Below are positions 4,233 through 14,309 of a stretch of 40,060 bases of DNA, in pieces. Origin of the DNA: a virus (taxonomy: Duplodnaviria; Heunggongvirae; Uroviricota; Caudoviricetes); the IMG/VR virus record IMGVR_UViG_2563366805_000009, one strand, 5' to 3'. The position numbers were made by a program, and so were the translations under genes. Within the stretch, counting starts at the first letter, position 1. The number at the start of each line of letters is the position of its first letter. The notes beneath the pieces were generated by a model. The model was not told where the DNA came from and ran no database searches. It worked only from the letters and a program-made list of their open reading frames with translations.

Positions 4233-5086
4233 GCACCATCCTGAAATGGGCGGGAAATAAAACCGCCGTAATGTCCGAACTGAAAAAACATCTTCCTGCT
4301 GGTCCGCGACTAGTTGAACCTTTCGCGGGTTCCTGTGCTGTGATGATGGAGACGGATTATCCCTGCTATCTGGTTGCGGATATTAATCCTGATTTAATCA
4401 ACCTCTATAAAAAGGTTGCCGCTGATTGTGAATCGTTTATATCTCGCGCCAAAGTTTTATTTGAGATCGCAAACAGGGAGGTGGCTTATTACAACATAAG
4501 GCAGGAGTTTAATTACTCAACTGAAATTACTGATTTCATGAAAGCGGTATATTTCCTGTATCTCAATCGTCACGGTTACCGTGGGTTATGTCGCTATAAC
4601 AAGAGCGGGCATTTCAACATTCCCTACGGTAATTATAAAAATCCGTATTTCCCTGAAAAAGAAATTCGCGCTTTTGCAGAAAAAGCCCAGCGAGCAACGT
4701 TTATCTGCGCCAGCTTTGATGAAACGCTGGCGATGTTGAAGGCGGGGGATGTGGTGTATTGCGATCCGCCTTATGACGGTACGTTTTCCGGCTATCACGC
4801 TGACGGCTTTACTGAAGATGACCAGTATCACCTGGCATCCGTTCTTGAACATCGGTCATCAGAAGGACATCCGGTCATTGTTTCTAACAGTGACACATCC
4901 CTGATCCGTTCGCTGTATCGCAATTTTACTCACCACTATATCAAGGTAAAACGCAGCATCGGCGTAGCAGCTGGTGAGAGTAAATCAGCAACAGAAATCA
5001 TTGCTGTTTCCGGGCCGCGCTGCTGGGTGGGATTTGATTATTCGCGTGGCGTGGATAGTTCTGCCGTGTACGGAGTACGTGCATGA
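4229..5086 (+). CDS. dam: Dam-family DNA adenine-N6 methyltransferase (orphan, phage-encoded)
   Basis: N-terminal KWAGNK...EPFAGS AdoMet-binding region and catalytic DPPY motif ([10 protein letters not shown]); start chosen at internal ATG 4229, overlapping the previous stop. Confidence 0.85.
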
Positions 5087-7497
5087 GCCATGCCGATATG
5101 AGCAACTGCTGCGGCTTTAACGAGGCTGCCGCATCGTTCTCATGGAACAGCCCGAAAAAGGCCATTAACCCTTATCTGGACCCGGCGGAAGTTGCGCCGG
5201 TTTCTGCGCTTTCAAACCTGATCACTCTGTACGCTGCCGATAACGAGCAGGAACAACTGCGCCGCGAGGCACTGAGTGATCAGGTCTGGGAGCGTTATTT
5301 CTTTAATGAATCCCGTGATCCTGTCCAACGCGAAATAGAGCAGGATAAGCTCATTAGCCGGGCAAAGTTGGCGCATGAGCAGCAGCGTTTTAACCCGGAC
5401 ATGGTCATTCTGGCAGACGTCAGCGCCCAGCCCTCCCATATCAGCAAGCCGCTGATGCAACGTATTGAATACTTCAGCAGCTTGGGCAGGCCAAAGGCTT
5501 ATTCCCGCTATTTACGTGAGACGATTAAGCCATGTCTGGAACGACTGGAGCATGTACGCGACAGCCAGCTATCTGCATCTTTTCGTTTTATGGCAAGCCA
5601 TGTAGGGCTGGACGGCCTGCTGATTCTGCCTGAAATGAGTCAGGATCAGGTGAAACGCCTGTCTACCCTTGTCGCTGCGCATATGAGCATGTGCCTTGAT
5701 GCAGCTTGTGGTGATTTGTATGCCACCGATGACGTTAAGCCAGAAGAAATCCGCAAGACATGGGAAAAGGTGGCAGCGGAAACCCTGCGTCTGGATGTCA
5801 TCCCGCCTGCGTTTGAGCAACTCCGTCGGAAAAGAAACCGCCGTAAACCCGTGCCCTATGAACTCATTCCGGGTTCGCTGGCGCGTATGTTGTGCGCCGA
5901 CTGGTGGTACCGGAAATTATGGAAAATGCGTTGCGAATGGCGGGAAGAGCAGTTGCGTGCTGTCTGCCTGGTCAGCAAAAAAGCATCTCCCTATGTCAGC
6001 TATGAAGCCGTGATGCATAAACGTGAGCAGCGCCGCAAGTCACTGGAGTTTTTCCGTTCTCATGAACTGGTGAACGAAGAGGGCGACACGCTGGATATGG
6101 AAGACGTGGTAAACGCCAGCAGCAGCAACCCGGCGCACCGCCGCAATGAGATGATGGCCTGTGTTAAAGGTCTGGAGCTTATCGCGGAAATGCGCGGTGA
6201 CTGCGCCGTTTTCTACACCATTACCTGTCCGTCACGTTTCCATTCCACGCTCAATAACGGCAGACCAAACCCAACCTGGACAAATGCGACGGTAAGACAA
6301 AGCAGCGATTATCTGGTCGGCATGTTTGCTGCATTTCGTAAGGCGATGCACAAAGCCGGGTTGCGCTGGTATGGCGTGCGGGTGGCTGAGCCGCATCATG
6401 ACGGTACAGTTCACTGGCACCTGTTGTGTTTCATGCGCAAAAAAGACCGCCGCGCCATTACTGCATTGTTGCGTAAGTTTGCCATCCGTGAAGACCGCGA
6501 GGAACTGGGTAATAACACTGGTCCACGCTTTAAATCTGAGCTGATAAACCCGCGCAAAGGAACGCCGACAAGCTACATCGCGAAATACATCAGTAAGAAC
6601 ATTGACGGGCGTGGTCTGGCTGGCGAGATCAGCAAGGAAACGGGTAAATCCCTGCGTGATAACGCTGAATACGTTAATGCCTGGGCGTCTCTGCATCGTG
6701 TTCAGCAATTCCGCTTCTTTGGTATTCCGGGACGTCAGGCTTACCGTGAACTTCGCTTGCTGGCTGGTCAGGCGGCAAGGCAACAGGGTGACAAAAAAGC
6801 AGGTGCGCCGGTACTGGATAACCCGCGTCTTGATGCCATTCTGGCTGCTGCTGATGCTGGTTGTTTTGCCACCTACATCATGAAGCAGGGCGGCGTACTG
6901 GTTCCCCGCAAATATCACCTCATCAGAACCGCTTATGAAATCAACGAAGAGCCAACCGCCTATGGCGATCACGGTATTCGTATTTATGGCATCTGGTCAC
7001 CCATTGCAGAGGGCAAGATCTGCACTCATGCAGTGAAGTGGAAAATGGTTCGTAAGGCCGTTGACGTTCAGGAGGCGGCAGCCGACCAGGGCGCTTGCGC
7101 CCCTTGGACTCGTGGCAATAACTGTCCCCTTGCTGAAAATTTGAACCAACATGAGAAAGATGAATCAGCAGATGGGGATACCAGAACGGACATTACCTGC
7201 ATGGATGACAAGGAATTGCACGATTACCTGCACAGTATGAGCAAAAAAGAGCGCCGGGAACTGGCAGCAAGATTGCGCCTGGTTAAACCGAAACGGCGTA
7301 AAGACTACAAACAGCGAATTACAGAGTATCAGCGTCAGCAGCTCGTCTATGAACTGAAGTCCAGAGGATTTGATGGCAGCGAGAAAGAGGTCGATTTGCT
7401 CCTTTGCGGTGGCAGTATTCCGTCAGGAGCAGGCCTGCGTATCTTCTATCGGAACCAGCGTTTGCAGGAAGATGATAAGTGGCGGAACATGTATTAA
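5083..7497 (+). CDS. A: Replication initiation endonuclease (P2 gpA family, rolling-circle)
   Basis: 804-aa ORF; HWHLL (HxH) motif and conserved Tyr-containing regions typical of gpA-type Rep; position after dam/TraR genes. Confidence 0.85.
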
Positions 7498-7591
7498 TCA
7501 CGCGGGTTAACAATTCGTGCTCTTAATAATACCAGGCATATCAGGCTGATGAACGTAAAAAAACGTTTTACATCAGTAAGATTATTATATA

Positions 7592-7607
7592 CTGTAAATA
7601 TAAACAG
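7592..7607. promoter_or_regulatory. LexA (SOS) box CTGT-N8-ACAG upstream of small ORF
   Basis: Sequence TACTGTAAATATAAACAGTG (7590..7609) matches consensus TACTGTATATATATACAGTA at CTGT/ACAG and an A/T-only spacer; about 45 bp upstream of ATG 7651, which has an AGGAGG RBS. Confidence 0.55.
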
Positions 7608-7749
7608 TGGTTATATGTACAGTATTGCGTATGGTGTTATAGGAGGAAAGATGCAGGACTATTTTTTGGAGTCTTTGAAGCTCCAGCGCATTGATTTTTT
7701 TCTTAAGCTTGTAGCGGCTAGTGAGTGTAGTGATGAAGAGAAGGGGCTA

Positions 7750-8902
7750 AATAGCTGCGCGGAATAGTAGATCACTGAAAGGGAACTCAGCCCGGATTGT
7801 GCGATCTGATCAATCGCCAAACCAACCAAAATCACCAACCGGACTGAGCGATGCCGATCATAGTACCAATACCCCGTGGCGAACGACGCCTGATGCAGAA
7901 AGCTATTCATAAAACGCGTGATAAAAATCATGCCCGCAGACTCACGGCCATGCTGATGCTTCATCGGGGTGAACGGGTCAGCGATGTTGCCAGAACTCTC
8001 TGTTGTGCCCGTTCATCCGTTGGTCGCTGGATTAACTGGTTTACGCACTCAGGTATTGAAGGCCTGAAATCCTTACCCGCAGGGCGCTCCCGACGCTGGC
8101 CTTTTGAACATATCTGCACCCTGTTACGTGAGCTGATAAAGCATTCTCCCGGCGATTTTGGTTATCAACGTTCACGCTGGAGCACCGAATTACTGGCAAT
8201 AAAAATCAATGAGATAACCGGTTGCCAGTTACATGCAGGAACCGTTCGCCGCTGGTTGCCATCTGCGGGGCTTGTATGGCGCAGGGCCGCGCCAACTCTG
8301 CGTATCCGTGACCCACATAAAGATGAAAAGATGGCGGTAATCCACAAAGCGCTGGATGAATGCAGCGCAGAGCATCCGGTATTTTATGAAGATGAAGTGG
8401 ATATCCACCTTAATCCTAAAATCGGTGCGGACTGGCAGTTGCGCGGACAGCAGAAACGGGTAGTGACGCCGGGGCAGAACGAAAAATACTATCTGGCCGG
8501 CGCACTGCACAGTGGCACGGGTAAAGTCAGCTACGTGGGCGGCAACAGCAAAAGTTCAGCGCTGTTTATCGCTCTGCTGAAGCACCTGAAAGCCACTTAC
8601 CGGCGGGCGAAAACAATCACGCTGATCGTTGATAACTACATTATCCATAAAAGCCGCGAAACACAGCGCTGGTTGAAAGCAAATCCCAAGTTCAGGGTAA
8701 TTTACCAGCCGGTTTACTCGCCGTGGGTGAATCATGTGGAACGGCTATGGCAGGCACTTCATGACACGATAACCCGTAATCATCAGTGCCGCTCAATGTG
8801 GCAGTTACTGAAAAAGGTCCGCCATTTTATGGAAACCGCCAGCCCATTCCCCGGAGGAAAACATGGTCAGGCAAAAGTGTAGCGGTATTAGGCGCAGCTA
8901 TT
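7750..8902 (+). mobile_element. IS630-family insertion sequence (1153 bp) with TA target duplication in a CTAG target
   Basis: Terminal inverted repeats AATAGCTGCGC at 7750..7760 and 8892..8902 (reverse complement); TA at 7748..7749 and 8903..8904; flanks reconstitute C-TA-G; single 343-aa transposase ORF; length equals IS630 as recalled. Confidence 0.85.
7851..8882 (+). CDS. IS630-family (Tc1/mariner-like DDE) transposase
   Basis: 343-aa ORF with HTH N-terminus and DDE-type C-terminus (…VDNYIIHKS…), inside the TIR-bounded element. Confidence 0.9.
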   Translation: MPIIVPIPRGERRLMQKAIHKTRDKNHARRLTAMLMLHRGERVSDVARTLCCARSSVGRWINWFTHSGIEGLKSLPAGRSRRWPFEHICTLLRELIKHSPGDFGYQRSRWSTELLAIKINEITGCQLHAGTVRRWLPSAGLVWRRAAPTLRIRDPHKDEKMAVIHKALDECSAEHPVFYEDEVDIHLNPKIGADWQLRGQQKRVVTPGQNEKYYLAGALHSGTGKVSYVGGNSKSSALFIALLKHLKATYRRAKTITLIVDNYIIHKSRETQRWLKANPKFRVIYQPVYSPWVNHVERLWQALHDTITRNHQCRSMWQLLKKVRHFMETASPFPGGKHGQAKV

Positions 8903-9026
8903 TAGCTCTGCAGTGGGTTTCTGAATTGACTGATGAGTTGATGGCGAAAATTCGAAGCCATGAATACAGTAGGTCGATGGATGTAATCAGTTGAGCTTGT
9001 TTCGTTAGGACTTGATAAGGGAACCG

Positions 9027-9049
9027 AAAAGGGGCATTAAGCCCCTTTC
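9027..9049. terminator. Bidirectional Rho-independent terminator-like hairpin
   Basis: AAAAGGGGC-ATTAA-GCCCCTTT, T-rich on the plus side and A-run (T-run on minus) on the other; lies between the interrupted small gene and the convergent lipoprotein gene. Confidence 0.45.
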
Positions 9050-9061
9050 TCATAAGTTGAT

Positions 9062-9361
9062 TTAGTTGTTCCCCAAAGAGCCGGCCATGGCTGCATATTT
9101 AATTTCTTCGCTGGGTATTTCAGGATGTAGTTGAATTTGCCTGATGATATAGCCAGGAACTTCGTCACTCCACAGTTTCGCCGCGTCCTTACAGACCTTA
9201 TACGCGAAGTCTCTATTCTCAAAGGCATAGGATTTTCCGTATGCATATTGCTGACAGGCATGAACATAAGCTCCGAAGTCGCCGTCTTTATCTGGCAAAG
9301 CACATCCAGCTAAGGCTATGATGATTGCTACTAACGTAAAGGAGAAAGTTATACGTTTCAT
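9062..9361 (-). CDS. Small lipoprotein (99 aa), function unknown
   Basis: Signal peptide with lipobox (LAGC) at N-terminus; ORF track. Confidence 0.6.
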   Translation of the reverse strand: MKRITFSFTLVAIIIALAGCALPDKDGDFGAYVHACQQYAYGKSYAFENRDFAYKVCKDAAKLWSDEVPGYIIRQIQLHPEIPSEEIKYAAMAGSLGNN

Positions 9362-9469
9362 GGTCTCTTTCTAAGCGTTTAGCATTATTTAACTAAGGGG
9401 TATCTGCCGTGATTTGGTAGTCCCTGATATATATTCTCAGGGACTATGCTGAAGTAGCTTTAATTTTGA

Positions 9470-10276
9470 TTATTTAGAAAGGTACTTATCTCTAAGTTGA
9501 TTCAGTCTGTCAGCATCGCGTTCTGAAAACTCGGCGTCACCATAGATCGATTTCCCATCTGCGTCTTCAAGGCCAATGACTGTGACGGTAAATATAGCAT
9601 CAGCCGGAACTTTAAGTTTTCCCCAATCAGAGTATCTATTAGGGGCTAATTTCCAGTTGGCTTTCTCACCTGGTTCCAGACCTCCAGAAATTTTATAGTT
9701 GAAGACGTCAGAGAACCAAGGGACGCTTCTTCCTGGGCTGGCAATAACTCCTTTGAAGAATACTCTGGCAACCGCTTTGTCTGTTCCGTTTTCAACGCTA
9801 ATATCCAGAATTGGCTGATCATTGCCGTAATCCTCTTTCTGGAAATAAAAACGGGAACGTTCGACCTTGAAGGCTTTCATTTTTTCCGCAGCCTGTGTTG
9901 CAGAGGTTTGTTTGGCTTCCAGTTCTTTTATTTCTTGCAGAGCCTGTTCTTTCTCTCTCTTCTCACGCTCAAGGCGAATAGTTTGTGCGTAATTTATAAC
10001 CTCATCACCAGTTTTACCTTCCAACGCTGACTTAATTTTTGTTTCGTAGACGTCCCCAGAAGACGTTCCAGCCTGCATTAGCTCTCTCATGTTGATTTGG
10101 CTAAAGGCAACGACTTTAACTGCATCATCAAACTGAGCTTTTTTATCTGCAGGTAAGGACTCTCTTACTTTTTGAATGGACTCTTTCATCGACTGATCGC
10201 TTGATGCATCGATCTTCGGTTTGTCACAAGCAGTAAGCAGCAGAGCAAAAGCAATTACGCCAGTTAATTTCTTCAT
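9470..10276 (-). CDS. Lipoprotein (268 aa), function unknown
   Basis: Start moved to internal ATG (MKKLTGVIAFALLLTAC…, lipobox LTAC); charged coiled-coil-like middle region; ORF track 9470..10348. Confidence 0.6.
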   Translation of the reverse strand: MKKLTGVIAFALLLTACDKPKIDASSDQSMKESIQKVRESLPADKKAQFDDAVKVVAFSQINMRELMQAGTSSGDVYETKIKSALEGKTGDEVINYAQTIRLEREKREKEQALQEIKELEAKQTSATQAAEKMKAFKVERSRFYFQKEDYGNDQPILDISVENGTDKAVARVFFKGVIASPGRSVPWFSDVFNYKISGGLEPGEKANWKLAPNRYSDWGKLKVPADAIFTVTVIGLEDADGKSIYGDAEFSERDADRLNQLRDKYLSK

Positions 10277-10437
10277 ATCCCTATCCCAATCGTAAAAAAA
10301 CAAGGCTAATCCTAACAGGATTAGCGGGCATGACAAACTCATAGCCATATAGGTGTGCTGTATAAATTAGCGGGATGAGAAAGCCTGCACAGACCCTCAT
10401 GTTGAAACTTGATTTTAGCTCAAAAGAGCTGACACTA

Positions 10438-10618
10438 AATAACTGCGCGGAATAATGTTCCACTTTCGGTTAGCCCTTGGCCCTTGGCTCTTGCTGGGTA
10501 AGGCGTGGGGCCGTTTTCTTCGCCTGATCCTGCTGTATCTGGCCTACAGTATGTTGTCCTTACGCGACATGCCACATGTCAGTAAACGGCAGGTGTAGCA
10601 GTATTAGACGCAGCTATT
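10438..10618 (+). mobile_element. 181-bp MITE-like element with IS630-type terminal repeats, TA duplication in a CTAG target
   Basis: Left end AATAACTGCGCGGAATAAT matches the IS630 left end at 7750 (2 mismatches); right end GTGTAGCAGTATTAGACGCAGCTATT matches the IS right end (2 mismatches); TA at 10436..10437 and 10619..10620; flanking C…G; no ORF inside. Confidence 0.6.
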
Positions 10619-10805
10619 TAGTGTGTATTAAGCTGGCTCATATTTATGACTGGTTTCAAGGTTTGACCGATTTTCATGTCATGCATGTCTATGCTGCATG
10701 AGTTCGCATGATCGTTTGAGGATCGGTTTGGCTAAGACATGCCAGAACTGGCGGGCTTTTGCTCATGTCATGCAGGTGCATGAAAACTACTACATAAAGC
10801 GGGCA

Positions 10806-10824
10806 GGCGTGGCGGGGATACGAG
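10806..10824. other. Probable cos site (19-nt cohesive-end region) of the P2/186-family phage
   Basis: GGCGTGGCGGGGATACGAG resembles the recalled P2/186 cohesive end GGCG(A/T)GGCGGGGAAAGCA(C/T) over the first 13 nt; lies between the A-side accessory region and the portal gene, as in P2. Confidence 0.4.
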
Positions 10825-10983
10825 CGCGCGCTCGCTTAGTTTTGTAACACTCTGAGTAAGGTCGCTTTTTAGAAGCAAATGGCTTGCAAATTTTTTCAAC
10901 ATTGAGGTAATTTGTTAGGTATCGAAGGATAAATTAAGACAAGAGCAAATTCTTATTGCTTTTTGGATGACTAGGTGCAAGTT

Positions 10984-12090
10984 ATGACAGGTAGTGTCCC
11001 AGTAGTGCTTTCTGAGTCTGAGTTAAAGTCGATCTTGACCTTAACTGAACGTTTCACATGGAACGTTGCAAGGCCAATTATTGCGTCTTTAGGGCTGCCA
11101 ACAGGTAGGGGGCGTGAAGCAACAAACGAAAAAATACTAGAAAGCCTCATTGATCTTAAAAGTAAAGATAGGCAAAAGTTTGATGGCATTATGGCAAACG
11201 TAAATGACCTAATTTTGGGTCAGGTCGTTTATGGTGAAAAAGCAATATTTAGTTTGACTGTAGATAATAGTGTAATTAAAACACTAAATGACAGATTTAG
11301 TTTCCAATGGAATTTGATGAATCAACCATCATTATTGGTTGATTCGATCCTTGATGATGTCCAATTGCAAAATGCTGTAAAAAATCAACCTGAACTTGTT
11401 AATTATTCTATTCAAAACACCCAGTCAATACTTGTTTTTTCATCTGTCAGAGAATTAGTTGTAAGAGAAAAAATTCCCCCGTCAGCACTTGCGCAATACA
11501 AGCAGTTTGATGAAATTATTGCAAAGCGAAAAGAAAAGCGACAATGTTTTGATGTCTGTATATTAGACTCTGTTACTAATAAAATTCATGTTTTGGTAGA
11601 TACTAATGGTAATATTATTGGTGATAATGTTACTTTTGCAAAGAGTAACATTATTCGTGAATTGTATAATCATGTCGGTTATGAATTTAAATCATCGGAA
11701 AAAGATTTTTATCCGTTAATTGAGCCAATTTTCAAACAAAATTCATTGCCTTATTCAAAATTAAGCTATAAAGTCTTTGATTTGTCATTTTTGACGAATG
11801 AGGGGACTACGCATAAAGAAAAGAAAAATGTGGCCACTAAAGACTTACGTGATGATTTGTTTAATAAGGAAGGCATCAAAGCAGTAGGCAGTATTGGTTT
11901 GTATCGTATTGGAATTAGAGTTGATAGAAATAATCCAAAACTGCAATTAGCGGATAACGTAGAGCTTATCATTCCGGGAACACTCCGCAGGCATCTAGGA
12001 GGGAGTAGTTGCTCTCCTGTTAACTATGCTATATTAAGTAAATGTATATCCAAAGATGATTTCGAAACCCTCACAAAGCTGATATTATAA
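10984..12090 (+). CDS. Hypothetical protein, gene 1 of AT-rich three-gene operon (368 aa)
   Basis: ORF track 10975..12090 (GTG); ATG 10984 preferred, AGGTG RBS 6 nt upstream; no P-loop, no nucleotidyltransferase GS…DxD or RT YADD motif seen by eye; strongly AT-rich. Confidence 0.6.
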   Translation: MTGSVPVVLSESELKSILTLTERFTWNVARPIIASLGLPTGRGREATNEKILESLIDLKSKDRQKFDGIMANVNDLILGQVVYGEKAIFSLTVDNSVIKTLNDRFSFQWNLMNQPSLLVDSILDDVQLQNAVKNQPELVNYSIQNTQSILVFSSVRELVVREKIPPSALAQYKQFDEIIAKRKEKRQCFDVCILDSVTNKIHVLVDTNGNIIGDNVTFAKSNIIRELYNHVGYEFKSSEKDFYPLIEPIFKQNSLPYSKLSYKVFDLSFLTNEGTTHKEKKNVATKDLRDDLFNKEGIKAVGSIGLYRIGIRVDRNNPKLQLADNVELIIPGTLRRHLGGSSCSPVNYAILSKCISKDDFETLTKLIL

Positions 12091-12102
12091 TTGGAGTCAG
12101 CA

Positions 12103-12537
12103 ATGAAGGATGGTGATATGCCCAAGATCATCAAAGAAATGTGTGCAGAACGCCCTGAAATTGGGGCGTTAGCTTGCTATTTGTACGATGAAATCGAGGC
12201 AAGGGCTAAAAAATCATCAAATATAGCTTTAAGTTATAAGGATTTATTTAATATAGCTGGTGGTTATAATAAGGTTTTACAGCCAGAAACGTATGAGCAG
12301 GTTATCTATCCGGCCATACAAATTCTTTGTAGCCCAAAGGTTGATTTTTTAAAACTCAATTATTGGTTCATTGATGATTTTCATGACCCTGTAGAACTTG
12401 AAATAGAGGAAGTTATTGAGGCGGAAATCAGTCAATCTTTAGCAAACCCATTTACAGGGGAGCTTATGTATGACTATAAGTCATTCGTATTTCCTTTTTT
12501 TACATTAGATGAATCTAAATCAAAGGATATTATCTGA
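12103..12537 (+). CDS. Hypothetical acidic protein, gene 2 of operon (144 aa)
   Basis: ORF track 12091..12537 (TTG); ATG 12103 with GGAG 6 nt upstream; begins 12 nt after gene 1 stop. Confidence 0.55.
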   Translation: MKDGDMPKIIKEMCAERPEIGALACYLYDEIEARAKKSSNIALSYKDLFNIAGGYNKVLQPETYEQVIYPAIQILCSPKVDFLKLNYWFIDDFHDPVELEIEEVIEAEISQSLANPFTGELMYDYKSFVFPFFTLDESKSKDII

Positions 12538-13202
12538 TGTTAAAAATGTCTGCAGCAATGAGTTTGGCTGATATTGATAATGATATTTTTCTTCAGCGTA
12601 TTAATGCTTCTATTACTCGTGTTAGATTTGCACTTCAATCGTACGATAATTTCAAACAATTTGTCAGGATTGAACTTGATTCTGCTGTAAAGGAAATAGA
12701 AGAGAATTCAAATAAGTTAAACTTCGATTTAACAGAAGATCAGCTTACTTTAATTTTATTGGCCAATATCAAAAATAAAGATATGGGCATTGAAGCATTT
12801 CATGAAAATAATCAGCGCGGACATTGTGATATTACAATAAAACTAAAGGATTATATTTGGCATGGCGAAGCCAAAAAACATACATCTTCATATAGTTATT
12901 TATTTAAAGGGTATGCTCAACTCACTGAACGATATAGTACAGGGACCGTAGACAGCGCAAGTGGTGGATTGATTATCTATACTCGTAATAGAAAATGTAA
13001 TGAAATGATGAGCAACTGGAAGGCGCATTTAGATAAATTCGCACCAAGAATTCATGCCTGTAAATCTATAACGATTACTCCTTGTCAAAAAAATCCATTG
13101 GTTTTTTATAGCCAGCATGTTCACACAGTTACTCAACTGAATTATGAAGTTATTCATTACCCTGTAAATCTATATCATGAGCCTGTAGATCCGGATCTTT
13201 AA
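12537..13202 (+). CDS. Hypothetical protein with PD-(D/E)xK-like nuclease motif, gene 3 of operon (221 aa)
   Basis: Start overlaps gene 2 stop (TGATG); motif …AFHENNQRGHCDITIKLKDYIWHGEAKKH (E…D-x13-E-x-K). Confidence 0.55.
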   Translation: MLKMSAAMSLADIDNDIFLQRINASITRVRFALQSYDNFKQFVRIELDSAVKEIEENSNKLNFDLTEDQLTLILLANIKNKDMGIEAFHENNQRGHCDITIKLKDYIWHGEAKKHTSSYSYLFKGYAQLTERYSTGTVDSASGGLIIYTRNRKCNEMMSNWKAHLDKFAPRIHACKSITITPCQKNPLVFYSQHVHTVTQLNYEVIHYPVNLYHEPVDPDL

Positions 13203-13242
13203 GTTTTAATGCTCATGTCTTGGTGATTTTAAACTAAAGAAT

Positions 13243-13270
13243 AAAAGCCTGTTTGTACAGGCTTTTAAAT
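13243..13270. terminator. Bidirectional Rho-independent terminator between operon and portal gene
   Basis: Perfect 10-bp inverted repeat AAAAGCCTGT/ACAGGCTTTT with 4-nt loop, T-run after the stem on both strands. Confidence 0.5.
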
Positions 13271-13271
13271 A

Positions 13272-14309
13272 TCATTCAATACCTAAATTATAATCTTCAA
13301 AACGCATGACTTCTTCTCCAAGCCAGTCGTTCAATTCCTGAAGGCGCTTCTGCAGAGGTATCAACTCGTTGCGAACAAAGACGCGGCTGGCTTTCTCCAC
13401 ATCCCCAAAACCCCCAACATTACTCGGCATAATCCCCATCATTTGCGGCGGCACACGATGTGCTGCCATCATGTCATCCCGACTCACGTTCTTGATATTC
13501 AAAAACTCATCCTTCGCTGCGACCTCTGACAACGGGATAATCTGAAGTCCGTCCTTTTTGCCGTTAGGCGAGTACATAAACAGATTGCGGAAGTTGCCAG
13601 GGCCTTTGGCGCTTTTCATTGCGTTGCGGAGGTTGTTCACATCTTCCTGGTTCTGCGCGGCATCGGTCATATACATGATGAAGCCTGCATGGCTACCGTT
13701 AATGTAATACTTGCGGCGGAACAGCGTGGCGGACTCGTTGAGCAGGGCTGACGGAATGGCAGAAAGATAACCGGGCAGGCCGTAGATCTCCTGGTTGATG
13801 TCCGGTTCCATCAGATGAAAAATGCTGCCTTTCGTGAACTGATACGGCAGGGTTGTCATACCGTATTGCACAAACCAGTAGGTATCCAGGTCTAATCCGC
13901 GTCGGGTGTATTTTGCAAGCGCAGGCTCAATAGCGATAACTTCACCGAATCGGTTCGTGCGTTTCTCCAGGTAGGCGTTACCAAATACCAGATAGTCCTG
14001 CACAAAACGCGAAAAAGCCTGCTGGCTGAGCAGCGGATGAGGGATATAGGTACTGGTCAGAATGTTGCACTTTACTGCAATCGGGGAACTGTGATGCACG
14101 GCGGCGCGGAAGGTGCGCGCCAGTCCGTCAAAGCTGACGGGCGGCTCATACCAACGGTCCATCTGTACGCATTCCACATAATCCAGCAGTTCTCGGCGGT
14201 CCAGAACAGGAACGGGATCGCCGAAGCTGAATGCTTCGGCTGTAGTTTGACTTTTAAGCTGGATCTGTTTCGTCGCCGCAGCGCGGTTCTTCTTACTCTT
14301 TCCCATCAA
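13272..14309 (-). CDS. Q: Portal protein (P2 gpQ family)
   Basis: 345-aa ORF, size and position match P2 Q; overlaps the terminase gene start/stop. Confidence 0.9.
   Translation of the reverse strand: MMGKSKKNRAAATKQIQLKSQTTAEAFSFGDPVPVLDRRELLDYVECVQMDRWYEPPVSFDGLARTFRAAVHHSSPIAVKCNILTSTYIPHPLLSQQAFSRFVQDYLVFGNAYLEKRTNRFGEVIAIEPALAKYTRRGLDLDTYWFVQYGMTTLPYQFTKGSIFHLMEPDINQEIYGLPGYLSAIPSALLNESATLFRRKYYINGSHAGFIMYMTDAAQNQEDVNNLRNAMKSAKGPGNFRNLFMYSPNGKKDGLQIIPLSEVAAKDEFLNIKNVSRDDMMAAHRVPPQMMGIMPSNVGGFGDVEKASRVFVRNELIPLQKRLQELNDWLGEEVMRFEDYNLGIE

What the first reader, a model, noticed from the sequence alone, without database searches (positions are those of the whole stretch)
9062..10276. Two cargo lipoprotein genes in the variable region after gene A, opposite in orientation to the phage operons
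Both products begin with a signal peptide plus lipobox cysteine (LAGC, LTAC). They occupy the position of the P2 tin/old variable locus, bracketed by IS630 and the MITE, and are flanked by a terminator hairpin. Envelope lipoproteins expressed from prophages often act in superinfection exclusion or host fitness; that role here is inference.
Basis: partly seen in the sequence, partly recalled or inferred. Interest (0 to 1): 0.5.

Follow-up and report, generated by a model that had tools for sequence, protein, structure and literature searches.

The report
Two mobile prophage lipoprotein genes
Two real, well-conserved lipoprotein genes sit where phage P2 carries its tin and old genes; both are mobile add-on genes of phages, phage-plasmids and defence islands, and they probably act at the cell envelope, perhaps against incoming phages, but no function has been shown.

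Summary
ORF1 (9062-9361, minus, 99 aa, lipobox LAGC) and ORF2 (9470-10276, minus, 268 aa, LTAC, Pfam DUF6694) are genuine genes under purifying selection (dN/dS about 0.1). They lie between P2-type gpA and portal Q, in the position and orientation of P2 old-tin. They are bracketed by a complete IS630 (7750-8902) and a 182-bp IS630-type MITE (10438-10619).

Three points are new. First, within this P2-like lineage the pair is constant; the swapping cargo starts at about 10833. Second, DUF6694 is a cross-phylum add-on gene ("moron"). It has lower GC than its flanks in 114/137 loci and often its own terminator. It lies next to the tape-measure gene in 35 prophage loci, and beside BrxR/BREX or type I restriction genes in others. 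Third, ORF1 is a tiny Enterobacteriaceae-only family native to SSU5-like phage-plasmids, where it follows a different lipoprotein. DUF6694 replaced that partner, and the pair then moved into P2.

Fold and sequence searches give no function, and no paper mentions the family. Best guess (about 0.4): envelope-level exclusion of incoming phages. This is an uncharacterised new member of a known kind, of moderate interest.

The parts
9062..9361 (-). ORF1: 99-aa lipoprotein precursor (lipobox LAGC, +2 Ala). The mature chain of about 79 aa has two invariant Cys (C36, C57). It matches phrog_7666 and has no Pfam family.
   Evidence: A profile search of 1.84 billion representative proteins finds only 3 true relatives.
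9470..10276 (-). ORF2: 268-aa DUF6694 lipoprotein precursor (lipobox LTAC, +2 Asp, +3 Lys). It has a helical N-domain with a long helix (residues 27-133), a beta-sandwich (136-237) and a C-terminal helix.
   Evidence: Pfam PF20404 at 79 bits against a cut-off of 24; phrog_7468; AlphaFold model with pLDDT 87; alignment. The 292-aa start that RefSeq (NCBI's PGAP annotation) calls at 10348 runs through a terminator and does not match the family N-terminus.
9026..9050 (.). G+C-rich hairpin between the convergent small ORF downstream of gpA and ORF1. It is the likely (possibly bidirectional) terminator of the lipoprotein transcript.
   Evidence: -13.8 kcal/mol, z -3.1. It was not called by the strict scan.
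9418..9446 (-). 10-bp-stem hairpin in the 108-bp ORF2-ORF1 spacer, with no U-tract.
   Evidence: -18.5 kcal/mol, z -4.6.
10295..10336 (-). Canonical intrinsic terminator (stem 10325-10305 plus a T-run) overlapping a promoter-like -35/-10 (10336-10309). It lies immediately upstream of the ORF2 start codon.
   Evidence: This segment travels with ORF2 onto small plasmids (window 9371-10330).
7750..8902 (+). IS630: 1153 bp, with a DDE_3 transposase at 7851-8882 and TA target duplication at 7748-7749 and 8903-8904. It is inserted in the small ORF downstream of gpA.
10438..10619 (.). 182-bp MITE with IS630-type terminal inverted repeats and a TA duplication.
   Evidence: It is absent from L003, L091 and L092.
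10833..13271 (+). The truly variable cargo slot. Here it holds an AT-rich (about 32% GC) three-gene operon (10975-12090, 12091-12537, 12537-13202) of unknown function. It is not part of the lipoprotein unit.
   Evidence: Homology to sister prophages stops at about 10832. There are at least 10 alternative cargos. No Pfam, NCBIfam or PADLOC hits. GC profile.
5083..7497 (+). P2-type replication gene A, the left boundary of the hotspot.
   Evidence: PF05840, E = 8e-128.
13272..14309 (-). Portal gene Q, the right boundary of the hotspot.
   Evidence: PF04860; annotated as portal in L001.

Best explanation
What the genes are (confidence about 0.9). They are two independently mobile 'moron'-type accessory genes. 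They were acquired together as a two-gene cassette from an SSU5-like phage-plasmid and now sit in the old/tin position of a P2-like prophage.

Expression and export (inferred). They are probably transcribed leftwards from a promoter at about 10310-10336 and terminate at the 9028-9048 hairpin, independently of the phage operons. Both products would be exported by Sec and lipidated.

Localisation (inferred). ORF2 (DUF6694) has Asp at +2 in every Enterobacterales homologue. It is therefore probably held on the periplasmic face of the inner membrane, with a beta-sandwich carried on a helical stalk. [quoted passage not shown]

What they do (inference, about 0.4). They act as envelope-level protection of the lysogen against other phages. 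ORF2 would interfere with a periplasmic or inner-membrane step of genome entry, such as tape-measure-mediated channel formation. ORF1 may act as a small Llp/Cor-style jammer of an outer-membrane receptor.
For: Lipoprotein signals are conserved across both families, and both genes are under purifying selection.

The position and orientation match the P2 lysogenic-conversion genes old and tin, inside the gpA-gpQ defence hotspot described in PMC9122126.

Moron hallmarks for DUF6694:
- GC is lower than the flanks in 114/137 loci, median -5.3 points. In the window it is 43% against 52-55%.
- A terminator lies within 140 nt downstream in 48/114 non-redundant loci, against 6% of control windows. A shared motif, AAACCCGC-N4-GCGGGTTT, occurs in both enteric and Pseudomonas loci (examples).
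- The gene is inserted at different places in cultured phages: after the tape-measure gene in PHB10, between K and I in PseuP_222, and next to the integrase in Marinobacter phage AS1.

In 35 loci DUF6694 is directly adjacent to the tape-measure gene, across three unrelated tape-measure families. [quoted passage not shown] That is the slot of the HK97 gene 15 moron, whose product blocks DNA entry (PMC3594210).

Defence-island contexts: it lies between BrxR and BrxA/BrxC, or beside HsdR-RmuC-HsdM, in Alcanivorax. In Psychroflexus it lies between HsdR and AAA_13/AAA_15 genes. Two loci have Cas1 as an immediate neighbour.

Asp at +2 is seen in all Enterobacterales homologues and in a minority of other gammaproteobacterial loci, while most other hosts have Gly, Ser, Ala or Thr.

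ORF1 resembles Llp/Cor in size class, lipid anchor and a pair of conserved Cys (PMC9586334).
Against: There is no experimental evidence and no homology or fold match to any known exclusion or defence protein.

DUF6694 keeps 40-55% identity and a fixed length across phyla and is under strong purifying selection. This is unusual for a protein in an arms race with phage proteins and suggests a conserved host target instead.

62 of 80 species-representative genome loci showed no recognisable phage or defence neighbours by my crude annotation.

Lys at +3 weakens the Asp+2 retention signal (PMC6469965), so the localisation is uncertain.

The promoter is only a consensus-level match, and expression in the lysogen is unknown.

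The gene is dispensable: an IS1 has inserted into the cassette in two E. coli genomes, splitting the DUF6694 CDS in at least one, and the gene is N-terminally deleted in two prophages.
Confidence: 0.4

Rival explanations
1. Lysogenic-conversion or host-fitness factors unrelated to phages. The lipoproteins would alter envelope properties such as serum or complement resistance (like lambda Bor or TraT), envelope stress tolerance, peptidoglycan-related processes or adhesion, and so benefit the lysogen directly.
Against: There are no Pfam hits to Bor, TraT or any known envelope family. The gene is repeatedly placed next to tape-measure genes and inside BREX or restriction islands. ORF1 is confined to phage-plasmids, prophages and islands.
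Confidence: 0.25
2. ORF1 and ORF2 work as one two-component envelope unit: an inner-membrane stalked lipoprotein plus a small outer-membrane lipoprotein forming a periplasm-spanning or cooperative complex.
For: The pair stays adjacent, with the same 108-bp spacer, in two different element types after about 25% protein divergence: the P2 hotspot and the Citrobacter phage-plasmids L093 and L159. In most other contexts ORF1 also directly follows a lipoprotein gene of 139-144 aa at a 10-bp gap.
Against: About 120 DUF6694 loci lack ORF1. More than 200 plasmids carry ORF1 without DUF6694. ORF2 alone sits on small E. coli plasmids at 99% identity. The alternative partner is unrelated to DUF6694. In Salmonella ORF1 follows a non-lipoprotein.
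Confidence: 0.15
3. The lipoproteins are accessory parts (sensor or effector) of the adjacent three-gene system, or of whichever defence system occupies the hotspot.
For: They lie directly beside a divergently transcribed unknown three-gene operon in a defence hotspot. In Alcanivorax, DUF6694 sits between BrxR and the defence operon and lacks its own terminator there.
Against: The same lipoprotein pair is found with at least 10 different neighbouring cargos, and the homology breakpoint lies at about 10832 (Table S5 of PMC9122126). GC differs: 43% against 32%. A lipid-anchored periplasmic protein with no transmembrane segment cannot signal to the cytoplasm on its own.
Confidence: 0.04
4. The genes are hitchhiking or decaying DNA with no current function, carried along by IS630-type elements.
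For: The pair is bracketed by IS630 and a related MITE whose outer inverted repeats could form a composite unit. ORF2 lies next to an IS630 fragment on plasmid pEH10-18-47_2. Some copies are disrupted.
Against: dN/dS is about 0.1 for both genes. The lipobox and many invariant residues are conserved across phyla. The cassette predates both the IS630 and the MITE insertions.
Confidence: 0.05

Closest known systems
P2 old-tin lysogenic-conversion genes (the gpA-gpQ hotspot of P2-like phages, Rousset et al. 2022, PMC9122126)
   Same: Same position between gpA and cos/portal Q. Same leftward orientation, convergent with the gpA operon. Two genes with a promoter on the cos-proximal side. The exact window arrangement is listed in that paper's hotspot table.
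   Different: Old and Tin are cytoplasmic proteins (Old is annotated as an exonuclease in the P2 record), whereas these are exported lipoproteins with no sequence similarity to them. Within their lineage the lipoprotein genes are constant and the neighbouring block varies. Their activity has never been tested.
HK97 gene 15 moron (gp15, a superinfection exclusion protein)
   Same: In about 29 prophage loci DUF6694 occupies the same slot, just upstream of the tape-measure gene and after the tail assembly chaperone where that gene was identified. It shows the moron hallmarks of deviant GC and its own terminator. Both are envelope proteins.
   Different: gp15 is a small YebO-like integral inner-membrane protein restricted to Enterobacteriaceae. 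DUF6694 is a 250-aa lipoprotein found across phyla, with no homology to gp15. Exclusion activity is not shown for DUF6694.
T5 Llp and the Cor small lipoproteins of T1 and phi80
   Same: ORF1 is a small phage-borne lipoprotein with a non-Asp +2 residue and two conserved Cys. This matches the Llp/Cor class, which are outer-membrane, periplasm-facing proteins with an intramolecular disulfide.
   Different: No sequence match. ORF1 is predicted helical at low confidence. It is not next to a receptor-binding-protein gene. P2 does not use FhuA (own knowledge). The target is unknown.
Ltp lipoprotein of Streptococcus thermophilus phage TP-J34
   Same: Ltp is a prophage-encoded, surface-exposed lipoprotein involved in superinfection exclusion (PMC3952083). 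That it blocks DNA injection and targets the tape measure protein is from my own knowledge. This is the mechanism proposed here for DUF6694.
   Different: The host is Gram-positive. Ltp has an unrelated fold of helix-turn-helix-like repeats and is encoded in the lysogeny module (own knowledge). The DUF6694 profile has no sequence match to any PDB chain.
Salmonella SadB and C. difficile 5TTA (structural neighbours)
   Different: The scores are low and the rmsd over the whole chain is large. The beta-sandwich is a generic Ig/FnIII-like fold also found in glycosidases and the Wzt carbohydrate-binding domain. No functional inference is justified.

Membership tests
Bacterial lipoproteins (Lgt/LspA substrates) | An N-terminal signal peptide with a basic n-region, a hydrophobic h-region and a lipobox [LVI][ASTVI][GAS]C | tested here: met
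   ORF1 has MKR...IIALAG|C and ORF2 has MKK...LLLTA|C. The Cys is conserved in all relatives.
Bacterial lipoproteins (Lgt/LspA substrates) | Actual lipidation and membrane localisation | not testable with these tools
   This needs palmitate labelling, globomycin treatment and fractionation. The +2 Asp of ORF2 with +3 Lys gives an ambiguous sorting prediction.
Pfam DUF6694 (PF20404) | Score above the gathering threshold | tested here: met
   ORF2 residues 7-101 score 79.2 bits against a cut-off of 24.3. RefSeq names it 'DUF6694 family lipoprotein'.
Moron (Juhala/Hendrix definition, as summarised in PMC3594210) | An extra gene between conserved phage genes, absent from related phages | tested here: met
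   The pair is absent from P2 and present in about 20 of 5426 E. coli genomes. DUF6694 is inserted at several different sites in tail modules.
Moron (Juhala/Hendrix definition, as summarised in PMC3594210) | GC content different from the surrounding genes | tested here: met
   43% against 52-55% in the window. GC is lower than the flanks in 114/137 loci.
Moron (Juhala/Hendrix definition, as summarised in PMC3594210) | Its own promoter and terminator | tested here: inconclusive
   Terminators lie downstream in 48/114 loci against 6% of controls. The window has hairpins at 9028-9048 and 9418-9446 and a terminator at 10305-10325. Promoters are only weak consensus matches.
Moron (Juhala/Hendrix definition, as summarised in PMC3594210) | Expression from the repressed prophage | not testable with these tools
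   No transcriptome data were available.
Anti-phage system of the P2 gpA-gpQ hotspot | Located between gpA and gpQ | tested here: met
   The arrangement is listed in Table S5 of PMC9122126.
Anti-phage system of the P2 gpA-gpQ hotspot | Varies between otherwise related prophages | tested here: not met
   Within the lineage the pair is constant at 99% identity, and the block right of about 10832 is what varies.
Anti-phage system of the P2 gpA-gpQ hotspot | Confers phage resistance, or matches a known defence family | tested here: not met
   No PADLOC hit. The locus is not among the systems cloned in PMC9122126. Resistance itself cannot be tested here.
Llp/Cor superinfection-exclusion lipoproteins | Sequence membership | tested here: not met
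   ORF1 has no Pfam family and matches only phrog_7666, of unknown function. A profile search finds no wider family.
Llp/Cor superinfection-exclusion lipoproteins | A small outer-membrane lipoprotein with a conserved Cys pair, encoded next to the receptor-binding protein, that blocks FhuA | tested here: inconclusive
   The size class and Cys pair fit. The gene is not next to a receptor-binding-protein gene. Receptor blocking cannot be tested here.
Spanins (Rz/Rz1-type lysis lipoproteins) | Encoded in the lysis cassette, with an o-spanin lipoprotein paired with an i-spanin that has an N-terminal transmembrane segment | tested here: not met
   The genes lie in the gpA-Q hotspot. The only lysis gene seen in the sister prophage stretch (the HP1-family holin) lies about 9 kb away, beyond the head genes. 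Both proteins are lipoproteins without a transmembrane segment.
Lambda Bor/Iss and TraT | Sequence membership | tested here: not met
   Neither ORF has a Pfam or NCBIfam hit other than DUF6694.

The most novel reading that the evidence does not exclude
DUF6694 is a previously unrecognised, cross-phylum family of phage-borne periplasmic lipoproteins that block a conserved step of phage genome entry in diderm bacteria, for example tape-measure-mediated passage through the periplasm and inner membrane. This would explain two things. First, the gene travels as a terminator-bearing cassette that repeatedly lands next to tape-measure genes of unrelated tail types. Second, it sits at the head of BREX and restriction islands and in the P2 defence hotspot. 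ORF1 would be a second, independent Llp-like receptor jammer.
Probability: 0.3. Interest if true: 0.65.

Novelty: new member of a known kind. Interest (0 to 1): 0.42.

Why it matters
Envelope-level exclusion is the least catalogued layer of anti-phage defence. Genome-mining tools (PADLOC gave no hit here) and hotspot studies list these genes only as 'hypothetical'.

If DUF6694 blocks phage entry, it would be a broadly distributed single-gene defence. It is found in Pseudomonadota, Bacteroidota, Desulfobacterota, Acidobacteriota, Planctomycetota, Verrucomicrobiota and Cyanobacteria, and it is carried by phages themselves. That would bear on phage host range and phage therapy.

The result also refines the P2 hotspot map: it contains a lineage-constant envelope module next to the swapping module. 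If no phenotype is found, the genes remain ordinary uncharacterised morons.

Tried and rejected
- NCBIfam and PADLOC scans of both ORFs and of the three neighbouring genes gave nothing.
- An Rfam search of 7000-14000 gave nothing.
- Profile searches against all PDB sequences gave no hit for either family.
- The ORF1 model was too poor (pLDDT 63.5) to search with.
- The ORF1 profile search of 1.84 billion representatives added only repetitive junk translations.
- hhalign of the alternative 139-144-aa partner against DUF6694 and ORF1 aligned only the signal peptides.
- The PADLOC scan of 126 neighbour proteins was swamped by redundant Cas1 models from two loci. The Pfam scan of the same set showed no recurrent partner.
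- The small ORF downstream of gpA is not homologous to P2 orf91.
- Literature searches for DUF6694, for the RefSeq accessions and for prophage lipoproteins acting on injection found no characterisation.
- Rejected: a spanin role (wrong module), a virion component (the protein has a signal peptide and lipobox), and membership of the adjacent three-gene system (the cargo swaps independently).
Full report
**1. The observation.**

The window carries a P2-like prophage of E. coli. The replication gene A (PF05840, E = 8e-128) is at 5083-7497 (+), and a portal gene is at 13272-14309 (-). Between them, on the minus strand, lie two ORFs:
- ORF1, 9062-9361, 99 aa, starting MKRITFSFTLVAIIIALAGC.
- ORF2, 9470-10276, 268 aa, starting MKKLTGVIAFALLLTAC.

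Both begin with a textbook lipoprotein signal peptide and lipobox. The lipobox Cys is invariant in the 14 ORF1 relatives and in essentially all of about 130 DUF6694 loci examined. Codon comparison with diverged copies gives dN/dS of 0.08-0.15 for both genes. These are real, selected genes.

RefSeq calls ORF2 from an upstream ATG (292 aa). That extension runs through a canonical terminator (10305-10325 plus a T-run) and has no counterpart in the family alignment.

**2. The surroundings.**

IS630 is complete: 7750-8902, 1153 bp, with 21-nt inverted repeats and a DDE_3 transposase. It is flanked by a TA duplication. Otherwise identical prophages lack it, and there the two flanks overlap by exactly TA. 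It splits a small ORF downstream of gpA.

A 182-bp MITE with IS630-type ends and a TA duplication lies at 10438-10619. It is missing from an 89%-identical sister lineage (L003, L091, L092).

A G+C-rich hairpin follows ORF1 (about 9028-9048). A 10-bp-stem hairpin without a U-tract sits in the 108-bp ORF2-ORF1 spacer (9418-9446). A promoter-like site (10336-10309) overlaps the upstream terminator.

In P2 itself the order is gpA(+), orf91(+), tin(-), old(-), and the old-tin mRNA starts near cos. ORF2 followed by ORF1 therefore copies the position and orientation of old followed by tin. Rousset et al. defined this gpA-gpQ interval as a defence hotspot. Their Table S5 lists exactly this gene string, IS630 transposase included, as 'hypothetical'. 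It is not among the systems they cloned.

**3. Constant and variable parts.**

Twenty of 5426 complete E. coli genomes carry the cassette at 98.8% identity or more. Comparison of 12 related prophage loci shows 99% identity from gpA through the lipoprotein genes up to window position about 10832. After that point the sequence differs, and at least ten different gene sets fill the space up to Q. One of these is a DUF262 protein listed in Rousset's table.

GC content shows three blocks: the phage backbone at 52-55%, the lipoprotein block at about 43%, and the three-gene operon at about 32%. The lipoprotein genes are therefore foreign to P2 but are the fixed neighbour of the swapping slot. They are not part of the adjacent system.

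**4. ORF2, the DUF6694 family.**

ORF2 matches Pfam PF20404 (79 bits) and phrog_7468. More than 350 homologues of about 270 aa were found, at 40-79% identity.

A scan of one genome per species found the gene in Enterobacterales, Pseudomonas, Alcanivorax, Desulfobacterota, Bacteroidota, Acidobacteriota, Planctomycetota, Verrucomicrobiota and a cyanobacterium. IMG/VR gave 56 viral contigs. Four cultured phages carry it, annotated 'putative lipoprotein'.

Contexts:
- 35 loci have the gene directly next to the tape-measure gene on the same strand, across three unrelated tape-measure families (TMP_2/lambda-C, TMP_3, lambda-C only). [quoted passage not shown] In six it lies between the tape measure and gpM.
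- 13 loci are in the P2 hotspot.
- In 8 Alcanivorax-group loci it lies next to a divergent BrxR-type WYL regulator. Downstream there is BREX (BrxA, BrxC) or a type I restriction system (HsdR-RmuC-HsdM).
- In a Psychroflexus locus it lies between HsdR and AAA_13/AAA_15 genes.
- In two loci Cas1 is the immediate neighbour.
- The rest are diverse, with no recurrent partner.

Moron hallmarks:
- The gene has lower GC than its flanks in 114/137 loci, and is 10-16 points lower in Pseudomonas tail modules.
- In 48/114 non-redundant loci an intrinsic terminator follows within 140 nt, against 6% of control windows. This includes loci where the next gene is the tape measure.
- The terminator motif AAACCCGC-N4-GCGGGTTT is shared between enteric and Pseudomonas copies (examples).

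This fits the classic definition of a moron, and the chaperone/tape-measure slot is that of HK97 gene 15.

**5. ORF2 structure and sorting.**

The AlphaFold model (pLDDT 87) shows three parts: a helical domain ending in a 44-residue helix (27-133), a seven-stranded beta-sandwich (136-237) and a terminal helix. One homologue has tandem repeat insertions in the long helix, as expected for a spacer or stalk.

The residue after the lipid-modified Cys tracks host taxonomy. It is Asp in all Enterobacterales copies except one Asn, and in a minority of other gammaproteobacterial loci. It is Gly in Pseudomonas, Ser in Alcanivorax and relatives, and Ala or Thr in Bacteroidota.

Asp at +2 is the enterobacterial inner-membrane retention signal. 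The Lys at +3 is reported to weaken it (PMC6469965). Inner-membrane anchoring is therefore likely but unproven.

**6. ORF1.**

ORF1 matches phrog_7666 and has no Pfam family. Only 14 clusters exist, all from Enterobacteriaceae. A profile search of 1.84 billion representative proteins added nothing real. The mature protein is about 79 aa, with Ala at +2, two invariant Cys and a predicted helical structure at low confidence.

Its home is the roughly 110-kb SSU5-like phage-plasmid. It occurs on 215 PLSDB plasmids, 200 of them from Klebsiella. There, and in a Kluyvera lambdoid prophage, it follows at a 10-bp gap an unrelated Cys-rich lipoprotein of 139-144 aa. In Salmonella it lies in an island beside dsbB, after a non-lipoprotein.

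In Citrobacter phage-plasmids (L093, L159) the same slot holds DUF6694 plus ORF1 with the same spacing as in the window, at 76% and 75% protein identity. The simplest history has two steps. DUF6694 replaced the usual partner in a phage-plasmid. The two-gene cassette then moved into the P2-like hotspot.

Most DUF6694 loci lack ORF1. ORF2 alone sits on three small E. coli plasmids at 99% identity. The two genes are therefore separable.

**7. Mechanism.**

What the data show:
- Both genes encode lipoprotein precursors and are under purifying selection.
- Both are mobile and phage- or defence-associated.
- DUF6694 behaves as a moron.
- The pair sits in the old/tin position.

What is inferred:
- Transcription independent of the phage operons, and expression in the lysogen.
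- The inner-membrane (ORF2) and outer-membrane (ORF1) locations.
- The function.

I favour (about 0.4) envelope-level exclusion of incoming phages. ORF2 would act at a periplasmic or inner-membrane step of genome entry. The repeated linkage to tape-measure genes echoes HK97 gp15 and the TP-J34 lipoprotein Ltp. ORF1 may be an Llp/Cor-like receptor jammer.

The main counter-argument is the unusually high cross-phylum conservation of DUF6694, which points to a conserved host target and keeps a host-fitness role alive (0.25). An obligate ORF1-ORF2 complex (0.15), accessory parts of the neighbouring system (0.04) and junk DNA (0.05) are less likely, for the reasons given under the rival explanations.

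**8. Novelty and verdict.**

No paper in the library mentions DUF6694 or these accessions apart from the supplementary list of Rousset et al.. The genes are annotated but uncharacterised. They belong to a known kind, prophage morons encoding envelope lipoproteins, but to no known family of that kind.

Interest is moderate: the DUF6694 distribution and its tape-measure and defence-island linkage give a clear, cheap experimental test.

Noticed in passing
window 10975-13202 (+): An AT-rich (about 32% GC) three-gene operon (371, 148 and 221 aa; phrogs 12777, 11490, 9664) fills the truly variable slot of the P2 gpA-Q hotspot. It has no Pfam, NCBIfam or PADLOC match and is listed only as 'hypothetical' in Rousset et al. 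Table S5. It is a candidate uncharacterised defence system.
   Followed up: partly
window 7549-7767 and 8863-8994 (+): A small ORF downstream of gpA (62-96 aa in intact relatives, WP_001580533) is split by the IS630 insertion. Part of it (window 8903-8995, the stretch just right of the IS630) matches about 500 E. coli genomes at 80-90% DNA identity, yet it is not homologous to P2 orf91, which holds the same position.
   Followed up: partly
window 7747-7766 and 10602-10621: The IS630 left inverted repeat and the MITE right inverted repeat are 85% complementary and in the right orientation to define a 2.9-kb composite unit enclosing both lipoprotein genes. Plasmid pEH10-18-47_2 (L002) has ORF2 next to an IS630 fragment. 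IS630-mediated mobilisation was not tested.
   Followed up: no
L098, L099, L007, L045 (enteric) and L027, L031, L048, L069, L112, L124, L129-L133 (Pseudomonas), 20-60 nt after the DUF6694 stop: Nearly the same terminator (AAACCCGC-N4-GCGGGTTT followed by a T-run) follows DUF6694 in distantly related hosts whose proteins are only about 45-55% identical. This suggests that the gene and its terminator move as one cassette.
   Followed up: partly
L012, L013, L017-L020, L054 (Alcanivorax group): A divergent pair of a BrxR-type WYL regulator and DUF6694 is constant, while the downstream defence system changes (BREX BrxA/BrxC, type I HsdR-RmuC-HsdM, or a ResIII helicase). In the loci with BREX no terminator follows DUF6694, so it may be the first gene of the regulated operon.
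   Followed up: partly
L143:4571-4990, L151:5556-5990, L152:5571-5990, L155:5565-5990: An unannotated family of 139-144-aa lipoproteins with four further invariant Cys always lies 10 bp upstream of the ORF1 homologue, in SSU5-like phage-plasmids and in a Kluyvera lambdoid prophage. It has no Pfam family and is unrelated to DUF6694.
   Followed up: partly
NZ_CP026399.1 and NZ_CM176338.1 (hits H3, H4); L094, L095: An IS1 has inserted within the cassette in two E. coli genomes; in one of them DUF6694 is annotated as two CDS pieces. In two IMG/VR prophages the first 80 or so codons of DUF6694, signal peptide included, are missing. The gene is therefore dispensable in some hosts.
   Followed up: no
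P0061, alignment A1 columns 150-187: One DUF6694 homologue has three extra tandem copies of an approximately 17-residue unit (ERQQALDEIKELEQKEA) inside the long helix. This indicates that the helix is a length-variable stalk.
   Followed up: no
window 10277-10348: The RefSeq (PGAP) start for the DUF6694 gene (292 aa) is probably 24 codons too far upstream. The extension contains an intrinsic terminator and has no counterpart in other family members.
   Followed up: yes
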